From Escherichia coli (lineage in GTDB: Bacteria > Pseudomonadota > Gammaproteobacteria > Enterobacterales > Enterobacteriaceae), in assembly GCF_024298765.1 (NCBI RefSeq), contig NZ_CP101210.1: 64,000 nucleotides of DNA. One strand, written 5' to 3'. Positions 46,101-52,100 of the stretch are shown piece by piece. Positions within the stretch are counted from its first letter, which is position 1, and the number at the start of each line of letters is the position of its first letter. Position numbers: made by a program.

Positions 46101-49100
46101 AAACTGAGATTTGCAATCAGAAAAAATTATTCAAGAGAACATCTCTAATTTATTGGTAGCGTCCATGAACGATGATTTCCTCACAACCAAAAAGTAAAGA
46201 AAATCTTATGATAAGATATATTTGTAAATTAGTATTATTAACGTCAAAGATCTTTTCTTTTCTGCACCCTTACTTTGCAACGCATAAAAAACAAATAAAA
46301 TCAATAATATATGCAGAAAAAGTTATTTTACGTAAAAATAACATTAAATAAATCAAGACTATTGAACATCACTAAAACATTAGACGTAATACACATTCAC
46401 CCCCGCTCCTTGACTCAGGGTTTTAATATTTTTTGTTTCACATCATTGTAGAAAAAATCGCGCATTAAAAATGAGTTGTAGAAAAACCGCACAATAAATA
46501 TTTCATATTTAATCTATTGCGTAGAACTACTATTCAAAAAATCTTATTAATGAGATAATGAAATTACATCGATAACGTTCTGATTGCAGGCACACTTATC
46601 TGGGTGTGCCTCTTTTTTTTACAACTGTACACGGTGGCGTATGACGAGAAAATATCTCACACAGGATGAAGTCTACAGGCTGATGGATGCAGCCCAGAGC
46701 ATGTCCTTTCCTGAAAGAAATCGCTGTCTAATTATGATGGCTTTCATTCACGGTTTTAGGGCCAGTGAACTTCTTGATTTACGTTTATCCGATATTGATG
46801 CATCAGGAAAACAACTTAATATCCGGCGTATTAAAAATGGCTTCTCGACAACACATCCTCTTCTTCCTGATGAATATAATTTGATCAAGTTGTGGCTTAA
46901 GCAGAGGAAGTTAATTGAAAATGGAGTTGAAGGAGACTGGCTTTTTCTCTCCCGGAAACGCCGCCCTATCAGCAGACAACATTTTTTTTCGATCATTCGT
47001 GAGGCAGGAAGACGTGCAGGATTAGCTGTAAAAGCACATCCTCATATGTTACGTCATGCCTGTGGATTTGCTCTGGCTGACAATGGTGTCGATACCCGAC
47101 TACTTCAGGATTATCTGGGTCATCGAAATATTCAGCATACTGTCAGATACACAGCCAGTAATGCTGCTCGATTTAAAGGGGTGTGGAAAAAAAAGCCTCG
47201 TTAAAACAGTACCTTCTGAATCAAAATGTCAGGTTTTGTAGCAATGGCGTGGACGAGTCTGAATGAAGAAGCCTCTGGTTATTATCAGTGCCTGTCAGTT
47301 CACCAGGCTGGCACTGGAGTCTCTCATCCCAACGGACAGGTATATCGTGCGGGTGTACAGCAACGTCACTACAGAGGTTGAATTCGTTTTAAAGACCTCC
47401 TGTGGCTACCTGTTAGCTGATATCCCATCGCTTCCTTCGGGAGAGTTGGTTCTTCTGGCTTGTCTTGTCCGCTTGCGGAGTGATGCCGGGCAATGGCAGG
47501 TCTGCCTGACCGGTGACTCCGACTGGTTCGATAATGCTCCTGCTGCAAGTCTGTATAACGGCTTCCCACGCATCGGCACCATGCTGACAGCGAGTCGTTA
47601 TCAGAATCAAATTATCCGCTGGTTACTACGTCCTTTGCCCGGCGATATGAGCGATTTCTGGCTCCTGACTGCACGGGAGTTGAGCGTGCTTAAGATTCTG
47701 ATGCAGGGCATGAGTTTCAGTGAGATTGCCCGTTATGAACAACGCAGTTCAAAGACCCTGCATGCGATTGCCACACGGGCTTTAATGAAACTTGGACTGG
47801 GAACACTGAGCGATTTCAGGCTGCTCTATACGGGATGCGGTGACAGCAGAGTGAAACGGAATATACGGCTACATGCAAAATATATCGGACAACATTCCGC
47901 TCATCGACTCACTCAGTATGTGCAGAACATGGTATCCGGAATTCTTTATCCAGAGAAAGTTGCCGTTGGTGAATCAATAAATTCTGACGCCATATCCGGA
48001 AAAGTACTTTCCGGACAAAGAAAAAATATGTCTAAAAAAAGACCAGGATTGTTATGACACAGCAGCGTTGTTACTACCCCCCACTGCGGCGCATACGGAC
48101 TCGCTACAGTGTAGGAGCCAAAATATTTCTACTGCTCTGGGCTGCAGGATTGGGAGGCACGCTGTACAGCCTGTACAGCGTGCTGGCGTACTGACATCTG
48201 TGAGGGAAGGATGCGTTTCGTTCTTTTCTGTCCCTCAGGAATTGTACCAGCGCAGTTCGCAGCTCTATCAACCGGTTCTGTCGGCAATGTTACCTGCATC
48301 AGAACAGAAGAGGAGTTACGCAATAAATTGCGGCACAGGCCACAGAATGTCGTGATATCGGCAGGGCGACCTGCCGAATGCGCTGAAATGTGGTTCCGAT
48401 TTTATCGGGATCACTCATTCGTGGTGGTGTTGTGCGTCGCACCCTTTTTTCTGCCACCAGATGTGAGTATTTCTGGCGTTCTCAAAAACCTGAGGTTACT
48501 GAAACCAGGAATGTCAGTAGAGCGTGTCATCAGTATTGCAAATGCCTCTGGTGGGTTTTCAGGGCTGAAACATGCAGAAATTTTGCCAGTTATGGACAGT
48601 TACTCTGTCTTTATGAAAGAGGTGAATAACCGCACAAAGACAATCGTCATGTCAGAACGCTTCCCGGAAAAGCAAAAGAAGGTGTTGTCGTTGCTTCTTG
48701 CCGGACACAGCTGGGAATACAGTGCGCAGTTTCTCAAAACGGGGATAAGACAGATATGGCTTGCCGAGCAGTCGCTAAAAAAGCGTTGGGGAATACCGGA
48801 CAGCATGTCATTGCGGGAAGCCCTGCTGCTGAGCAGCAATAATTTTCACGGTGATGGAAATGCATTGGAAACAACGAATGCCATGACATTGCGTGAAAAC
48901 GGAAATACCAACAGGTATTCCGTGGTGGTAAATGCAGGGACGCAGGCTTTATCTCTGCATAAATATAAATAAGTGGGAAATTGAAATTAGTTACCAGAAT
49001 GGAGAATTTCTTCATGAAAAACAGTAAGGCATTTTACCGCAGCGCATTAGCAACAGCTATTGTTATGGCTCTTTCTGCACCAGCATTCGCTGCTGATAAC

Positions 49101-52100
49101 GCGGTATCAACTACACCGGTTACATTGGATAAAGATAAGACAACTCTGGAACAAGATGTTGTTATTAGTGGTACTACACAGATTACAGCCGCAACAATTA
49201 ATGCGGAAGATAAAGACCTTAATGTTACTTTTGGTGGTCATGATATTACTGCTGAATCAACGGCAGATAAAGAATTCGTTAAAGGTGTAAAAGTTAGCGG
49301 TGACAAAAATGTTGTGATTAATGCTACAGGCTCCACCATCACAGCTCAAGGTGAAGGCACCTATGCCCGGACTGCAATGGTCATTGATTCAACTGGCGAT
49401 GTTGTTGTTAATGGCGGTAATTTCGTTGCAAAAAATGAAAAAGGTAGTGCGACAGGGATATCTCTGGAAGGGGCCCAGGGAAATAATGTCACGCTTAATG
49501 GCACAACCATAAATGCTCAAGGTAATAAGAGTTCCAGCAACGCCTCCACGGCAATTTTTGCTCAAAAGGGTAGCTTATTGAATAGTTTTAACGGTGATGC
49601 AACCGACAACATTACCCTTGCTGGCTCAAATATTATTAATGGTCGGATTGAAGCAATAGTTATTGCCGGGAATAATACGGGAACTCATACAGTCAACCTG
49701 AATATTAAGGATGGCTCAGTAATTGGGGCGGCTAATAATAAACAAACAATTTATGCCTCTGCTTCGGCACAAGGCGCAGGTTCAGCAACGCAAAATTTAA
49801 ATTTGTCTGTTGCTGATTCAACCATCTACTCTGATATCCTGGCCCTTTCTGAAAGCGAGAATTCAGTCGGTACCACAACAAATGTAAACATGAACGTTGC
49901 CCGCTCTTACTGGGAAGGTAATGCTTATACCTTCAATAGCGGCGATAAAGCGGGTAGTAATCTGGATATAAATCTTTCCGATAGTTCAGTCTGGAAAGGC
50001 AAAGTTTCAGGGGCAGGAGATGCCAACGTATCTCTGCAAAACGGGTCTGTCTGGAATGTTACGGGTTCCTCAACTGTTGATGCTCTGGCAGTAAAAGACA
50101 GTACGGTAAATATCACGAAGGCTACAGTCAATACTGGCACGTTTGTTTCTCAAAACGGCACTCTGATTGTTGATGCCTCTTCTGAAAACACTCTGGATAT
50201 CAGCGGAAAAGCGAGCGGTGACTTGCGTGTTTACAGTGCGGGTTCATTGGATCTTATCAATGAACAAACGGCATTTATTTCTACCGGCAAAGACAGCACT
50301 CTAAAAGCCACAGGCACAACGGAAGGTGGTCTGTATCAATATGACCTGACACAGGGAGCTGATGGTAACTTTTATTTCGTAAAAAACACGCATAAAGCAT
50401 CCAACGCCAGCTCCGTGATTCAGGCAATGGCAGCTGCTCCGGCTAACGTTGCTAATCTGCAGGCTGACACGCTCTCCGCCCGTCAGGATGCTGTCCGTCT
50501 GAGCGAAAATGACAAGGGCGGCGTATGGATTCAGTACTTTGGCGGTAAACAGAAACATACCACCGCGGGAAATGCATCCTATGACCTGGATGTAAATGGT
50601 GTAATGCTGGGTGGTGATACCCGCTTCATAACTGAAGATGGTAGCTGGCTGGCCGGTGTGGCGATGTCTTCTGCGAAAGGTGACATGACTACCATGCAGA
50701 GCAAAGGTGACACTGAAGGTTACAGCTTCCACGCTTACCTGAGCCGCCAGTATAACAACGGTATCTTCATTGATACTGCTGCACAGTTTGGTCACTACAG
50801 CAACACGGCAGATGTTCGCCTGATGAATGGTGGCGGTACCATCAAAGCTGACTTTAACACCAATGGTTTTGGTGCGATGGTTAAAGGCGGTTACACATGG
50901 AAAGACGGTAATGGCCTGTTTATTCAGCCATATGCCAAACTGTCTGCTCTGACTCTGGAAGGTGTGGATTATCAACTCAACGGCGTGGACGTTCATTCTG
51001 ACAGCTATAACTCTGTGCTGGGTGAGGCCGGTACGCGCGTGGGTTATGACTTCGCTGTGGGCAACGCGACCGTTAAACCTTATCTGAATCTGGCCGCACT
51101 GAACGAATTCTCTGATGGCAACAAAGTCCGTCTGGGTGATGAGTCTGTCAATGCCAGCATTGACGGTGCAGCATTCCGCGTGGGTGCAGGTGTACAGGCT
51201 GATATCACCAAAAACATGGGAGCATATGCAAGCCTTGACTACACCAAAGGTGACGACATTGAGAATCCGCTACAGGGTGTAGTTGGTATCAATGTGACCT
51301 GGTAAGAATAAAGCAGTCGGTTCCCCTGTCGACTGTTATACCCCCTGCAGGCAGCAGTATGCTGCCTGCAGGCTATAAATATCCAGTATTCATGATGCTG
51401 GATATTTGCTGATATTTAACCCGAACATTCCTGATACAGACTATTAATTCATTTATCTGCGGCAGATTTTATTCTCTGAATATATTATGAGTGAACAAAT
51501 CAAACAGGATATCGATCTGATTGAGATTTTATTTTATCTGAAAAAAAAGATTCGTGTTATCCTTTTTATTATAGCTATCTGTATGGCAATGGTGCTGTTG
51601 TTTCTGTATATCAATAAAGATAATATAAAAGTGAGTTACAGCCTAAAAATAAACCAGACAACACCAGGCATACTTGTTAGCTGTGATAGCAATAATAACT
51701 TTGCCTGTCAGACCACAATGACTGAAGATGTTATTCAGCGAATTACTACATTTTTTCAAACCAGCCCAGATGTCAAGAACAGAGAAATAAAGCTGGAATG
51801 GTCAGGAGATAAGAGAGATTTACCAACTGCTGAAGCGGAAATATCTCGCGTGCAGGCGTCTATCATCAAATGGTATGCGTCAGAATACCATAATGGCAGG
51901 CAAGTTCTCGATGAGATACAAACGCCTTCAGCAATTAACAGTGAGCTTTATACAAAAATGATATACCTGACCAGGAACTGGTCACTGTATCCAAACGGTG
52001 ATGGCTGTGTCACTATAAGCTCACCAGAAATAAAAAATAAATACCCTGCTGCCATTTGCCTGGCTCTGGGATTTTTTCTAAGCATTGTGATTTCTGTAAT

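What the first reader, a model, noticed from the sequence alone, without database searches (positions are those of the whole stretch)
46641..51305. Recombinase - LuxR - LuxR - autotransporter module: candidate phase-variable adhesin system
A FimB/FimE-family tyrosine recombinase gene is followed in the same orientation by two LuxR-type regulator genes and a 763-aa type Va autotransporter, all in a visibly AT-rich block inserted between betA and ykgH. FimB/FimE-type recombinases act on short invertible promoter elements, and in uropathogenic E. coli such recombinases (fimX, ipuA) control adjacent LuxR-type regulators (hyxR, ipuR) and, in one case, an autotransporter (upaE) by inversion. This locus has the same layout and may be one of those systems or a relative. 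The recombinase-to-first-LuxR spacer is only 58 bp, so if a switch exists it must overlap a coding end or lie upstream of the recombinase. I could not identify its flanking inverted repeats by eye.
Basis: partly seen in the sequence, partly recalled or inferred. Interest (0 to 1): 0.7.

Follow-up and report, generated by a model that had tools for sequence, protein, structure and literature searches.

The report
Known fimX-hyxRAB island, switch deleted
This is the already described E. coli island PAI-X (recombinase FimX, regulators HyxR and HyxA, adhesin HyxB/UpaB), but in this strain the 271-bp stretch holding the invertible promoter that normally switches it on and off has been cleanly removed, so the locus is known in kind and probably no longer phase-variable here.

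Summary
They are the named island PAI-X: ipbA (=fimX/hbiF) 46641-47204, hyxR 47263-48057, hyxA 48211-48972 and hyxB (=upaB) 49014-51305. The island is 5.8 kb (45570-51384) and sits between betA and ykgH. RefSeq annotates 100%-identical copies with these names.

The twist concerns the switch. In UTI89 the fimX-hyxR gap is 329 bp and holds the invertible element hyxS. hyxS is a 246-bp core between perfect 16-bp inverted repeats, TGATTCAAAATGTCAG / CTGACATTTTGAATCA. A third, directly oriented copy overlaps the right repeat. In the window the gap is 58 bp: exactly 271 bp are missing and one site copy remains (47217-47232). A chicken isolate that still carries hyxS has flanks identical to the window (0 mismatches in 907 bp).

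Among 5,426 complete E. coli genomes, 1,781 carry hyxS in the UTI89 orientation, 15 carry it flipped, and 88 have this precise deletion. The deletion occurs in at least two backgrounds and with two scar variants (central A or T), so it has happened more than once.

No other inverted-repeat-bounded segment or partner site was found. Verdict: a known system in a switch-less allele.

The parts
45570..51384 (+). PAI-X island (5,815 bp) inserted between betA and ykgH relative to K-12, 44.2% GC
   Evidence: Alignment with the K-12 betA-ykgH spacer; coordinates and GC
45564..45569 (.). Left copy of the 6-bp direct repeat ATATCC flanking the island
51379..51384 (.). Right copy of the 6-bp direct repeat ATATCC flanking the island
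45570..46640 (.). AT-rich (33.6% GC) non-coding spacer upstream of fimX. It contains the direct repeats TTGTAGAAAAA at 46446 and 46475 and a terminator-like hairpin at 46588-46611 followed by T8
   Evidence: no Rfam match
46641..47204 (+). ipbA = fimX = hbiF, a 187-aa FimB/FimE-type tyrosine DNA invertase. It is intact and has the catalytic R40/H135/R138/Y170
47217..47232 (+). Single residual hyxS recombination site TGAATCAAAATGTCAG (the 'scar'). The 271 bp that carry hyxS in other strains are missing immediately here
47205..47262 (+). 58-bp fimX-hyxR spacer, with no promoter-like or terminator-like site and no unusual RNA structure
47263..48057 (+). hyxR, a 264-aa LuxR-family regulator (GerE HTH at aa 135-181)
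48157..48183 (.). Perfect 13+1+13 palindrome GCACGCTGTACAG-C-CTGTACAGCGTGC in the hyxR-hyxA spacer, conserved in UTI89 and clone D
48211..48972 (+). hyxA, 253 aa. There is no sequence-profile hit; the predicted fold is receiver-like (beta-alpha)5 plus a LuxR-type four-helix HTH
49014..51305 (+). hyxB = upaB, a 763-aa type Va autotransporter adhesin
51344..51372 (+). GC-rich hairpin (12-bp arms CCTGCAGGCAGC / GCTGCCTGCAGG) downstream of hyxB, just inside the island's right end
   Evidence: Read from the sequence printed; not analysed further

Best explanation
The locus is pathogenicity island PAI-X of E. coli. FimX (IpbA/HbiF) is a FimB/FimE-type tyrosine invertase. In most island-bearing strains it flips hyxS, a 246-bp promoter segment bounded by 16-bp inverted repeats that lies between fimX and hyxR. 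That inversion gives ON/OFF expression of hyxR, and the literature treats hyxRAB as one operon (two LuxR/FixJ-type regulators and the adhesin UpaB).

In this window hyxS has been lost by a precise 271-bp deletion. The deletion joins the left repeat to a third, directly oriented copy of the site that overlaps the right repeat, and it leaves one site at 47217-47232.

Shown: the identity of the island; the absence of the element; the single remaining site; that an identical-flank relative still carries the element; and that the deletion recurs in other backgrounds with a different scar base.

Inferred:
(i) With one site, local inversion is impossible, so hyxRAB is no longer phase-variable.
(ii) Lacking the switch promoter and the border hairpin, hyxRAB is now transcribed, if at all, by read-through from fimX. 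That would make expression fixed, most likely low and constitutive.
(iii) The deletion was most likely made by FimX itself. The right border is a 25-nt perfect palindrome, so the site there can be read in either orientation. It can pair with the left site as an inverted repeat (inversion) or as a direct repeat with one central mismatch (excision).
(iv) FimX remains able to act in trans on fimS (type 1 fimbriae), as published for UTI89 and CFT073.
For: Identity: 100% DNA identity over 6.1 kb to genomes annotated ipbA/hyxR/hyxA/hyxB. Domains are as expected. The published descriptions of PAI-X and hyxS agree.

Deletion: alignment with UTI89 shows a 329-bp gap against 58 bp in the window, with the element bounded by perfect 16-bp inverted repeats plus an overlapping third copy. 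GPEC1035 carries hyxS in the flipped orientation, and its flanks have 0/450 and 0/457 mismatches to the window. There is one exact site copy in the 64-kb window, and the only other matches have 3 mismatches, at about chance level.

Population: 1,803 genomes carry the hyxS core. Of these 1,781 are in the UTI89 orientation and 15 are flipped. 88 genomes carry the same deletion junction in one uninterrupted piece.

Recurrence: clone D i2 and i14 have UTI89-type IpbA and HyxR proteins and a scar TGATTCA..., whereas the window has TGAATCA.... 68 genomes match the window's 56-bp scar region exactly (A type). The other 19 differ by at least one base, and every one listed or read has T at the centre.

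Read-through: there is no terminator-like or promoter-like site in 47205-47262. The -19.9 kcal/mol border hairpin of hyxS-bearing strains is gone, and the spacer fold has z = -0.16.
Against: No expression or read data exist for this strain, so 'fixed expression' and 'read-through from fimX' are inferences. I could not read Bateman & Seed 2012 (not held), so I do not know the mapped hyxR transcription start or which orientation is ON. A 16-bp direct repeat could also be deleted by replication slippage or RecA without FimX. The two scar variants fit both mechanisms. The counts are of genomes, not of independent events; many of the 88 are clonal (mostly poultry isolates).
Confidence: 0.85

Rival explanations
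1. The locus is still phase-variable. A cryptic invertible segment overlaps the 3' end of fimX or lies upstream of fimX, as the first reader proposed (compare ipuS, whose distal repeat lies inside ipuA).
For: Short imperfect inverted repeats exist. TTGTAGAAAAA(A) at 46446 and 46475 faces TTTTTTTTACAA at 46613. A 15-nt pair at 46936/47145 is 80% complementary. A 3-mismatch inverted copy of the site lies at 46104-46119.
Against: These repeats are AT-rich or imperfect and at chance level (three 3-mismatch matches besides the real site, against 1.35 matches expected in total). 1,882 of 1,889 genomes are colinear over 46300-46760. All 88 deletion-allele genomes are colinear over 47017-47416. By contrast hyxS itself is seen flipped in 15 genomes. 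Genome-wide inversion calling after FimX overexpression in UTI89 and CFT073 found only fimS, hyxS and ipuS (PMC6458436).
Confidence: 0.04
2. The switch-less arrangement is the ancestral 'empty site', and hyxS was inserted later into other lineages. The window would then never have had a switch.
For: The two forms can be interconverted by one recombination between identical sites, so integration of a small circle is formally the reverse reaction (inference).
Against: About 95% of island-bearing genomes carry hyxS, including O157:H7 and UPEC strains such as UTI89. The window's flanks are identical to those of a hyxS-bearing strain. Clone D shares its IpbA and HyxR proteins with hyxS-bearing UTI89. 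Two scar variants exist, as expected from repeated loss and not from a single ancestral state. The related Salmonella T1-antigen locus also has a switch (PMC11294581).
Confidence: 0.06
3. The deletion is real, but it was made by recombinase-independent slippage or homologous recombination between the 15/16-identical direct repeats 271 bp apart, not by FimX.
For: 16-bp direct repeats a few hundred bp apart are classic substrates for replication slippage (general knowledge). Both scar variants are possible if the crossover can fall on either side of the mismatched base.
Against: The repeats are exactly the sites on which the adjacent recombinase acts. The palindromic right border (hairpin) gives a specific reason why a tyrosine recombinase could align the sites for excision. 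Symmetric-spacer lox and FRT sites support both inversion and excision (my knowledge, not tested here). No data here discriminate between the two routes.
Confidence: 0.35
4. The missing 271 bp is an assembly artefact: a collapse at a repeat-bounded, orientation-heterogeneous region.
For: Switch regions with mixed orientation can confuse assemblers (general knowledge).
Against: The same junction occurs in 88 complete genomes from different laboratories, in two scar variants. RefSeq annotates intact flanking genes.
Confidence: 0.02

Closest known systems
PAI-X: fimX (ipbA/hbiF)-hyxS-hyxR-hyxA-hyxB(upaB) of UPEC UTI89 and CFT073 (Bateman & Seed 2012, as cited in PMC6083910, PMC3789825 and PMC6458436)
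   Same: The chromosomal site is the same (betA/ykgH), as are the four genes, their order and their orientation. In the stretch of fimX and the start of hyxR compared with clone D i14, which encodes UTI89's IpbA and HyxR proteins, 11 of 660 bases differ. The recombination-site sequence is the same.
   Different: The 271 bp carrying the invertible hyxS promoter element are absent. One site copy remains and the fimX-hyxR gap is 58 bp instead of 329 bp. The AT-rich region upstream of about 46400 is a divergent haplotype, 90-95% identical to most genomes.
ipuA/ipuB-ipuS-ipuR-upaE of CFT073 (PMC6083910)
   Same: The logic is the same: a Fim-type tyrosine invertase next to a LuxR-type regulator and an autotransporter adhesin, controlled by promoter inversion. 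FimX also inverts ipuS.
   Different: It is a different island with different genes. ipuS is 260 bp with 7-bp repeats, one of them inside ipuA. The recombinase genes lie on the other side of the switch from ipuR-upaE. It has one regulator, not two. The window has no invertible element at all.
fimB/fimE-fimS type 1 fimbrial switch of E. coli
   Same: The recombinase belongs to the same family (NF007370/NF007371 hits). Published work shows FimX can invert fimS.
   Different: fimS has 9-bp repeats (314-bp element, from my knowledge) and drives fimbrial genes. It is not in this window.
Salmonella STM0716 switch controlling the T1 antigen cluster (PMC11294581)
   Same: STM0716 is a FimX orthologue (72% identity per the paper) placed upstream of a 269-bp invertible promoter. 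The paper describes 9-bp inverted repeats identical to those of PAI-X. A HyxA-like gene (STM0718) lies downstream.
   Different: It controls polysaccharide biosynthesis genes, not an autotransporter, and its switch is present.

Membership tests
PAI-X (fimX-hyxRAB island) | Inserted between betA and ykgH | tested here: met
   Alignment with the K-12 betA-ykgH spacer places the island at 45570-51384 with ATATCC flanks. The neighbours are the same in UTI89.
PAI-X (fimX-hyxRAB island) | Gene content and order: fimX, hyxR, hyxA, hyxB | tested here: met
   100%-identical genomes carry these RefSeq names. The ORFs are intact.
PAI-X (fimX-hyxRAB island) | hyxS invertible element with 16-bp inverted repeats between fimX and hyxR | tested here: not met
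   271 bp are absent, a single site remains at 47217-47232, and there is no partner in 64 kb. The locus is still PAI-X by position and genes; it is a switch-deleted allele.
FimB/FimE-type tyrosine DNA invertases | Sequence-family membership above the curated threshold | tested here: met
   NF007370 scores 250.8 bits (cutoff 221) and NF007371 scores 232.8 bits (cutoff 222).
FimB/FimE-type tyrosine DNA invertases | Catalytic R-H-R-Y residues | tested here: met
   R40 (GFRASE), H135 and R138 (HMLRH) and Y170 (RYT) are present. Correspondence to FimB residues is from my knowledge.
FimB/FimE-type tyrosine DNA invertases | Catalyses inversion of a linked element | not testable with these tools
   No local substrate is left. 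The identical protein (WP_001362381.1) sits next to a flipped hyxS in GPEC1035, which is indirect support for activity.
Invertible-promoter phase-variation system | Segment bounded by inverted repeats and found in both orientations | tested here: not met
   Not met in the window. Met in relatives: 1,781 genomes in one orientation and 15 in the other.
LuxR/FixJ (GerE) family regulators | C-terminal GerE-type HTH in HyxR | tested here: met
   PF00196, E 3.9e-6, aa 135-181. Weak PDB hits to the LuxR-type domains of PdeL and RcsB.
LuxR/FixJ (GerE) family regulators | C-terminal GerE-type HTH in HyxA | tested here: inconclusive
   No Pfam, NCBIfam or PDB-sequence hit for HyxA or its relatives. The AlphaFold model (pLDDT 76, aa 131-205 above 83) matches full-length RcsB, VraR, FixJ and NarL with Foldseek E 2e-5 to 1e-3, but with TM only 0.3-0.5. 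A phospho-acceptor Asp is not evident by eye.
Type Va (classical) autotransporters | C-terminal 12-strand beta-barrel translocator plus passenger domain | tested here: met
   TIGR01414 at aa 364-763, E 8.7e-69. Passenger aa 26-487 = UpaB, PDB 6BEA, E 4.9e-248. The barrel region resembles BrkA 3QQ2. The signal peptide was not formally tested.

The most novel reading that the evidence does not exclude
hyxS is in effect a three-state switch. Because its right border is a perfect 25-nt palindrome, FimX can pair the borders for reversible inversion (ON/OFF). More rarely it can pair them for irreversible excision. That excision has repeatedly produced switch-less PAI-X alleles, such as this one, in which hyxRAB is permanently coupled to fimX transcription. 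This would be a natural, recombinase-made 'exit' from phase variation, fixed in a mainly poultry-associated lineage and in clone D.
Probability: 0.4. Interest if true: 0.45.

Novelty: already known. Interest (0 to 1): 0.25.

Why it matters
For a genome scan, the main point is that this finding rediscovers a named, experimentally studied system, so it should not be carried forward as new.

The residual interest is narrower. About 1 in 20 island-bearing complete genomes (88 of about 1,890) have lost the hyxS switch by the same nucleotide-precise event, at least twice independently, and many of them are poultry isolates. Published work links hyxR, hyxA and upaB to nitrosative-stress tolerance, macrophage survival, O-antigen chain length and serum resistance, adhesion, and transient phage resistance. 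Such strains would therefore express these traits in a fixed rather than bet-hedging manner.

Studies that type 'fimX/PAI-X positive' strains would miss this difference. The allele also offers a natural test of whether a Fim-type invertase can excise as well as invert.

Tried and rejected
- **Inverted-repeat scans, 45400-49100 and 46300-47700.** These gave many short AT-rich or imperfect pairs, none convincing. The best upstream candidate (TTGTAGAAAAA x2 against TTTTTTTTACAA) was tested against 1,889 genomes and never found inverted.
- **Distant partner for the residual site.** Only 3-mismatch, chance-level hits turned up in the 64-kb window.
- **Promoter and terminator consensus scans.** They found nothing in the 58-bp spacer. 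In UTI89 orientation hyxS contains one weak promoter-like site pointing at hyxR, which is too weak to assign ON or OFF.
- **Rfam scan of 45300-51600.** No RNA family matched.
- **Reading the primary hyxS papers.** Bateman & Seed 2012, the Bio-protocol paper and Bateman 2013 are not held. The mapped promoter and the ON orientation therefore remain unknown to me.
- **HyxA by sequence methods.** BLASTP against HyxR, Pfam, NCBIfam and a PDB profile search all failed. Single-sequence AlphaFold was useless (pLDDT 40). Only the alignment-based model was informative.
- **Reading orientation from BLAST endpoints.** The 41-120 versus 47-120 alignment endpoints turned out to be a tie-breaking artefact of strand, not a signal.

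
Full report
**1. What is there**

The interval 46641-51305 contains four intact, co-oriented ORFs. Megablast of 45400-51500 against 5,426 complete E. coli genomes finds 100%-identical copies. Many of these are from poultry, and others are from pigs, dogs, humans and water. 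RefSeq annotates them as ipbA ('also known as HbiF and FimX'), hyxR, hyxA and hyxB, between betA and ykgH.

Alignment with the K-12 betA-ykgH spacer defines the inserted block as 45570-51384 (5,815 bp, 44.2% GC), flanked on both sides by ATATCC. Only the 1.07-kb stretch upstream of fimX is strongly AT-rich (33.6% GC). The genes are 42-49% GC.

**2. The proteins**

- FimX (187 aa) scores above the curated cutoffs of both NCBIfam 'tyrosine-type DNA invertase' models and keeps the R/H-x-x-R/Y catalytic residues.
- HyxR has a GerE/LuxR helix-turn-helix.
- HyxB has an autotransporter barrel, and its passenger is UpaB, whose structure is solved (6BEA, E 4.9e-248).
- HyxA has no detectable sequence family. 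A full-library search found only a few relatives at 27-54% identity. An AlphaFold model built from them (pLDDT 76) has a (beta-alpha)5 receiver-like N-terminal domain and a four-helix C-terminal domain. Its best PDB matches are full-length RcsB, VraR, FixJ, DesR, LiaR and NarL.

**3. It is a known system**

The literature held here describes PAI-X as fimX plus hyxRAB (PMC3789825). It states that FimX, and only FimX, inverts hyxS, a promoter element with 16-bp inverted repeats that controls hyxR (PMC6083910; PMC6458436). hyxB is upaB. hyxRAB is treated as an operon preceded by the flipped promoter (PMC11294581; PMC12922286). hyxR 'invertase inversion' has been linked to transient phage resistance (PMC12361893). 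I could not obtain the primary paper.

**4. Where the switch is, and that it is missing here**

In UTI89 the ipbA-hyxR gap is 329 bp; in the window it is 58 bp. The alignment and the UTI89 sequence show the following arrangement, reading from fimX:

...CAGTACCTTC | TGATTCAAAATGTCAG | 246-bp core | CTGACATTTTGAATCA | AAATGTCAGGTTTTG... then hyxR

The two 16-mers are perfect inverted repeats. The right one overlaps a third, directly oriented copy (TGAATCAAAATGTCAG). The right border is therefore a 25-nt perfect palindrome, which as RNA would form a -19.9 kcal/mol hairpin (z = -7.2).

The window reads ...CAGTACCTTC | TGAATCAAAATGTCAG | GTTTTG.... Exactly 271 bp are absent, which is the distance from the left repeat to the third copy, and one site remains at 47217-47232.

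The chicken isolate GPEC1035 encodes the same IpbA and HyxR proteins as the window-identical strain 104. It still has hyxS, in the orientation opposite to UTI89 (230/246 identity to the reverse complement). Its flanks match the window with 0 mismatches in 450 + 457 bp. The window is thus that allele minus hyxS.

**5. Population picture**

| State of hyxS among 5,426 complete genomes | Genomes |
|---|---|
| hyxR 5' end present | 1,889 |
| hyxS core present | 1,803 |
| hyxS in UTI89 orientation | 1,781 |
| hyxS flipped | 15 |
| Deletion junction as one uninterrupted match | 88 |

The 15 flipped assemblies come from diverse backgrounds and independently confirm that hyxS inverts in nature.

The 88 deletion alleles are not one clone. 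Identity to the window over 400 bp ranges from 100% down to about 98%. Clone D i2 and i14 carry UTI89-type IpbA and HyxR proteins. To my knowledge they are ST73 UPEC. Their scar has T at the central position (TGATTCA...), where the window has A. Counting by identity over a 56-bp scar query gives 68 genomes identical to the window (A type) and 19 with at least one difference, of which every one listed or read has the central T. At least two independent, nucleotide-precise deletions have therefore occurred.

**6. No alternative switch**

The site has no second copy in the 64-kb window; the three other matches have 3 mismatches, close to the 1.35 expected by chance. Inverted-repeat scans give only short AT-rich or imperfect pairs.

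The most suggestive pair is two direct TTGTAGAAAAA repeats facing the T-run just upstream of fimX. It lies in a region that is colinear in 1,882 of 1,889 genomes. All 88 deletion alleles are colinear across the residual site. Published genome-wide inversion calling after FimX overexpression found no further targets.

**7. How it most likely works here**

- With one site, FimX cannot invert anything locally. This follows from what is known of tyrosine recombinases.
- The switch-borne promoter is gone. The 58-bp spacer has no promoter-like or terminator-like signal and no unusual structure.
- I infer that hyxRAB is either transcribed by read-through from fimX or essentially silent. In both cases expression would be fixed, not bimodal.
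- FimX itself is intact and should still act on fimS in trans (literature; not testable here).

On the origin of the deletion, I favour FimX-mediated excision. The two recombining sequences are the recombinase's own sites, and the central heptad TGA(A/T)TCA is palindromic except for its middle base. Such near-symmetry allows synapsis in either orientation. A central mismatch in the exchanged region would segregate into both A and T scars, and both are observed. Slippage between 16-bp direct repeats predicts the same products and is not excluded (about 0.35).

**8. Verdict**

In kind, the system is already known. The switch-less allele and its recurrent precise origin do not appear in the papers I could search. 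That library is incomplete, so I claim only that I did not find it. Interest is low to moderate.

Noticed in passing
window 46588-46620: There is a strong terminator-like hairpin (AGGCACACTT-ATCT-GGGTGTGCCT, -14.8 kcal/mol, z = -3.6) followed by T8, only about 20 nt before the fimX start codon. It is conserved in UTI89 with a C-to-T change that keeps a G-U pair. It might end an upstream transcript or act as a leader or attenuator for fimX. No Rfam family matches.
   Followed up: partly
window 46446-46457, 46475-46486 and 46613-46626: Two direct copies of TTGTAGAAAAA(A) face an inverted copy in the T-run upstream of fimX. It looks like a switch, but the region is colinear in 1,882 of 1,889 genomes. 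It may be a protein-binding motif in the fimX regulatory region.
   Followed up: yes
window 48157-48183: A perfect 27-bp palindrome GCACGCTGTACAG-C-CTGTACAGCGTGC lies in the hyxR-hyxA spacer. It is 100% conserved in UTI89 and clone D. As RNA it forms a -25 kcal/mol hairpin with no U-tract. It is a candidate operator for a dimeric regulator (HyxR or HyxA?) or an mRNA processing or stability element.
   Followed up: partly
L002 19594-19618 (UTI89), absent from the window: The right border of hyxS is a 25-nt perfect palindrome (CTGACATTTTGA-A-TCAAAATGTCAG). It would form a -19.9 kcal/mol RNA hairpin (z = -7.2) directly upstream of hyxR in either switch orientation. It might also modulate transcription into hyxR.
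   Followed up: partly
L006 (E. coli RM14721, dog) 1-1614: Six genomes with hyxS in the flipped orientation have only a remnant annotated 'DNA recombinase' in place of fimX. In the one inspected, RM14721, the remnant is 114 bp and IS66-family genes lie just upstream. This is a second natural route to a locked state, here with the element retained in the minority orientation.
   Followed up: partly
window 46300-46640: The region upstream of fimX is a distinct haplotype. Only 86 genomes are at least 99% identical, while 1,764 are 90-95% identical. Across fimX and the start of hyxR, by contrast, only 11 of 660 bases differ from clone D i14. This suggests recombination or divergent regulatory regions within PAI-X.
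   Followed up: no
window 45497-45557: A perfect 11-bp inverted repeat TGAGAGTTACC / GGTAACTCTCA, 39 nt apart, lies just downstream of the betA stop codon. It is shared with K-12, so it is core genome and not part of the island. It is probably the betA terminator or a REP-like element.
   Followed up: no
window 48211-48972 (HyxA): The HyxA family is small (a few relatives at 27-54% identity in 1.8 billion representatives) and has no Pfam model. The predicted fold is a receiver-like domain plus a LuxR-type HTH. The positions expected for the acidic pocket and the phospho-acceptor Asp do not show Asp by eye, so it may be an atypical, phosphorylation-independent regulator.
   Followed up: partly
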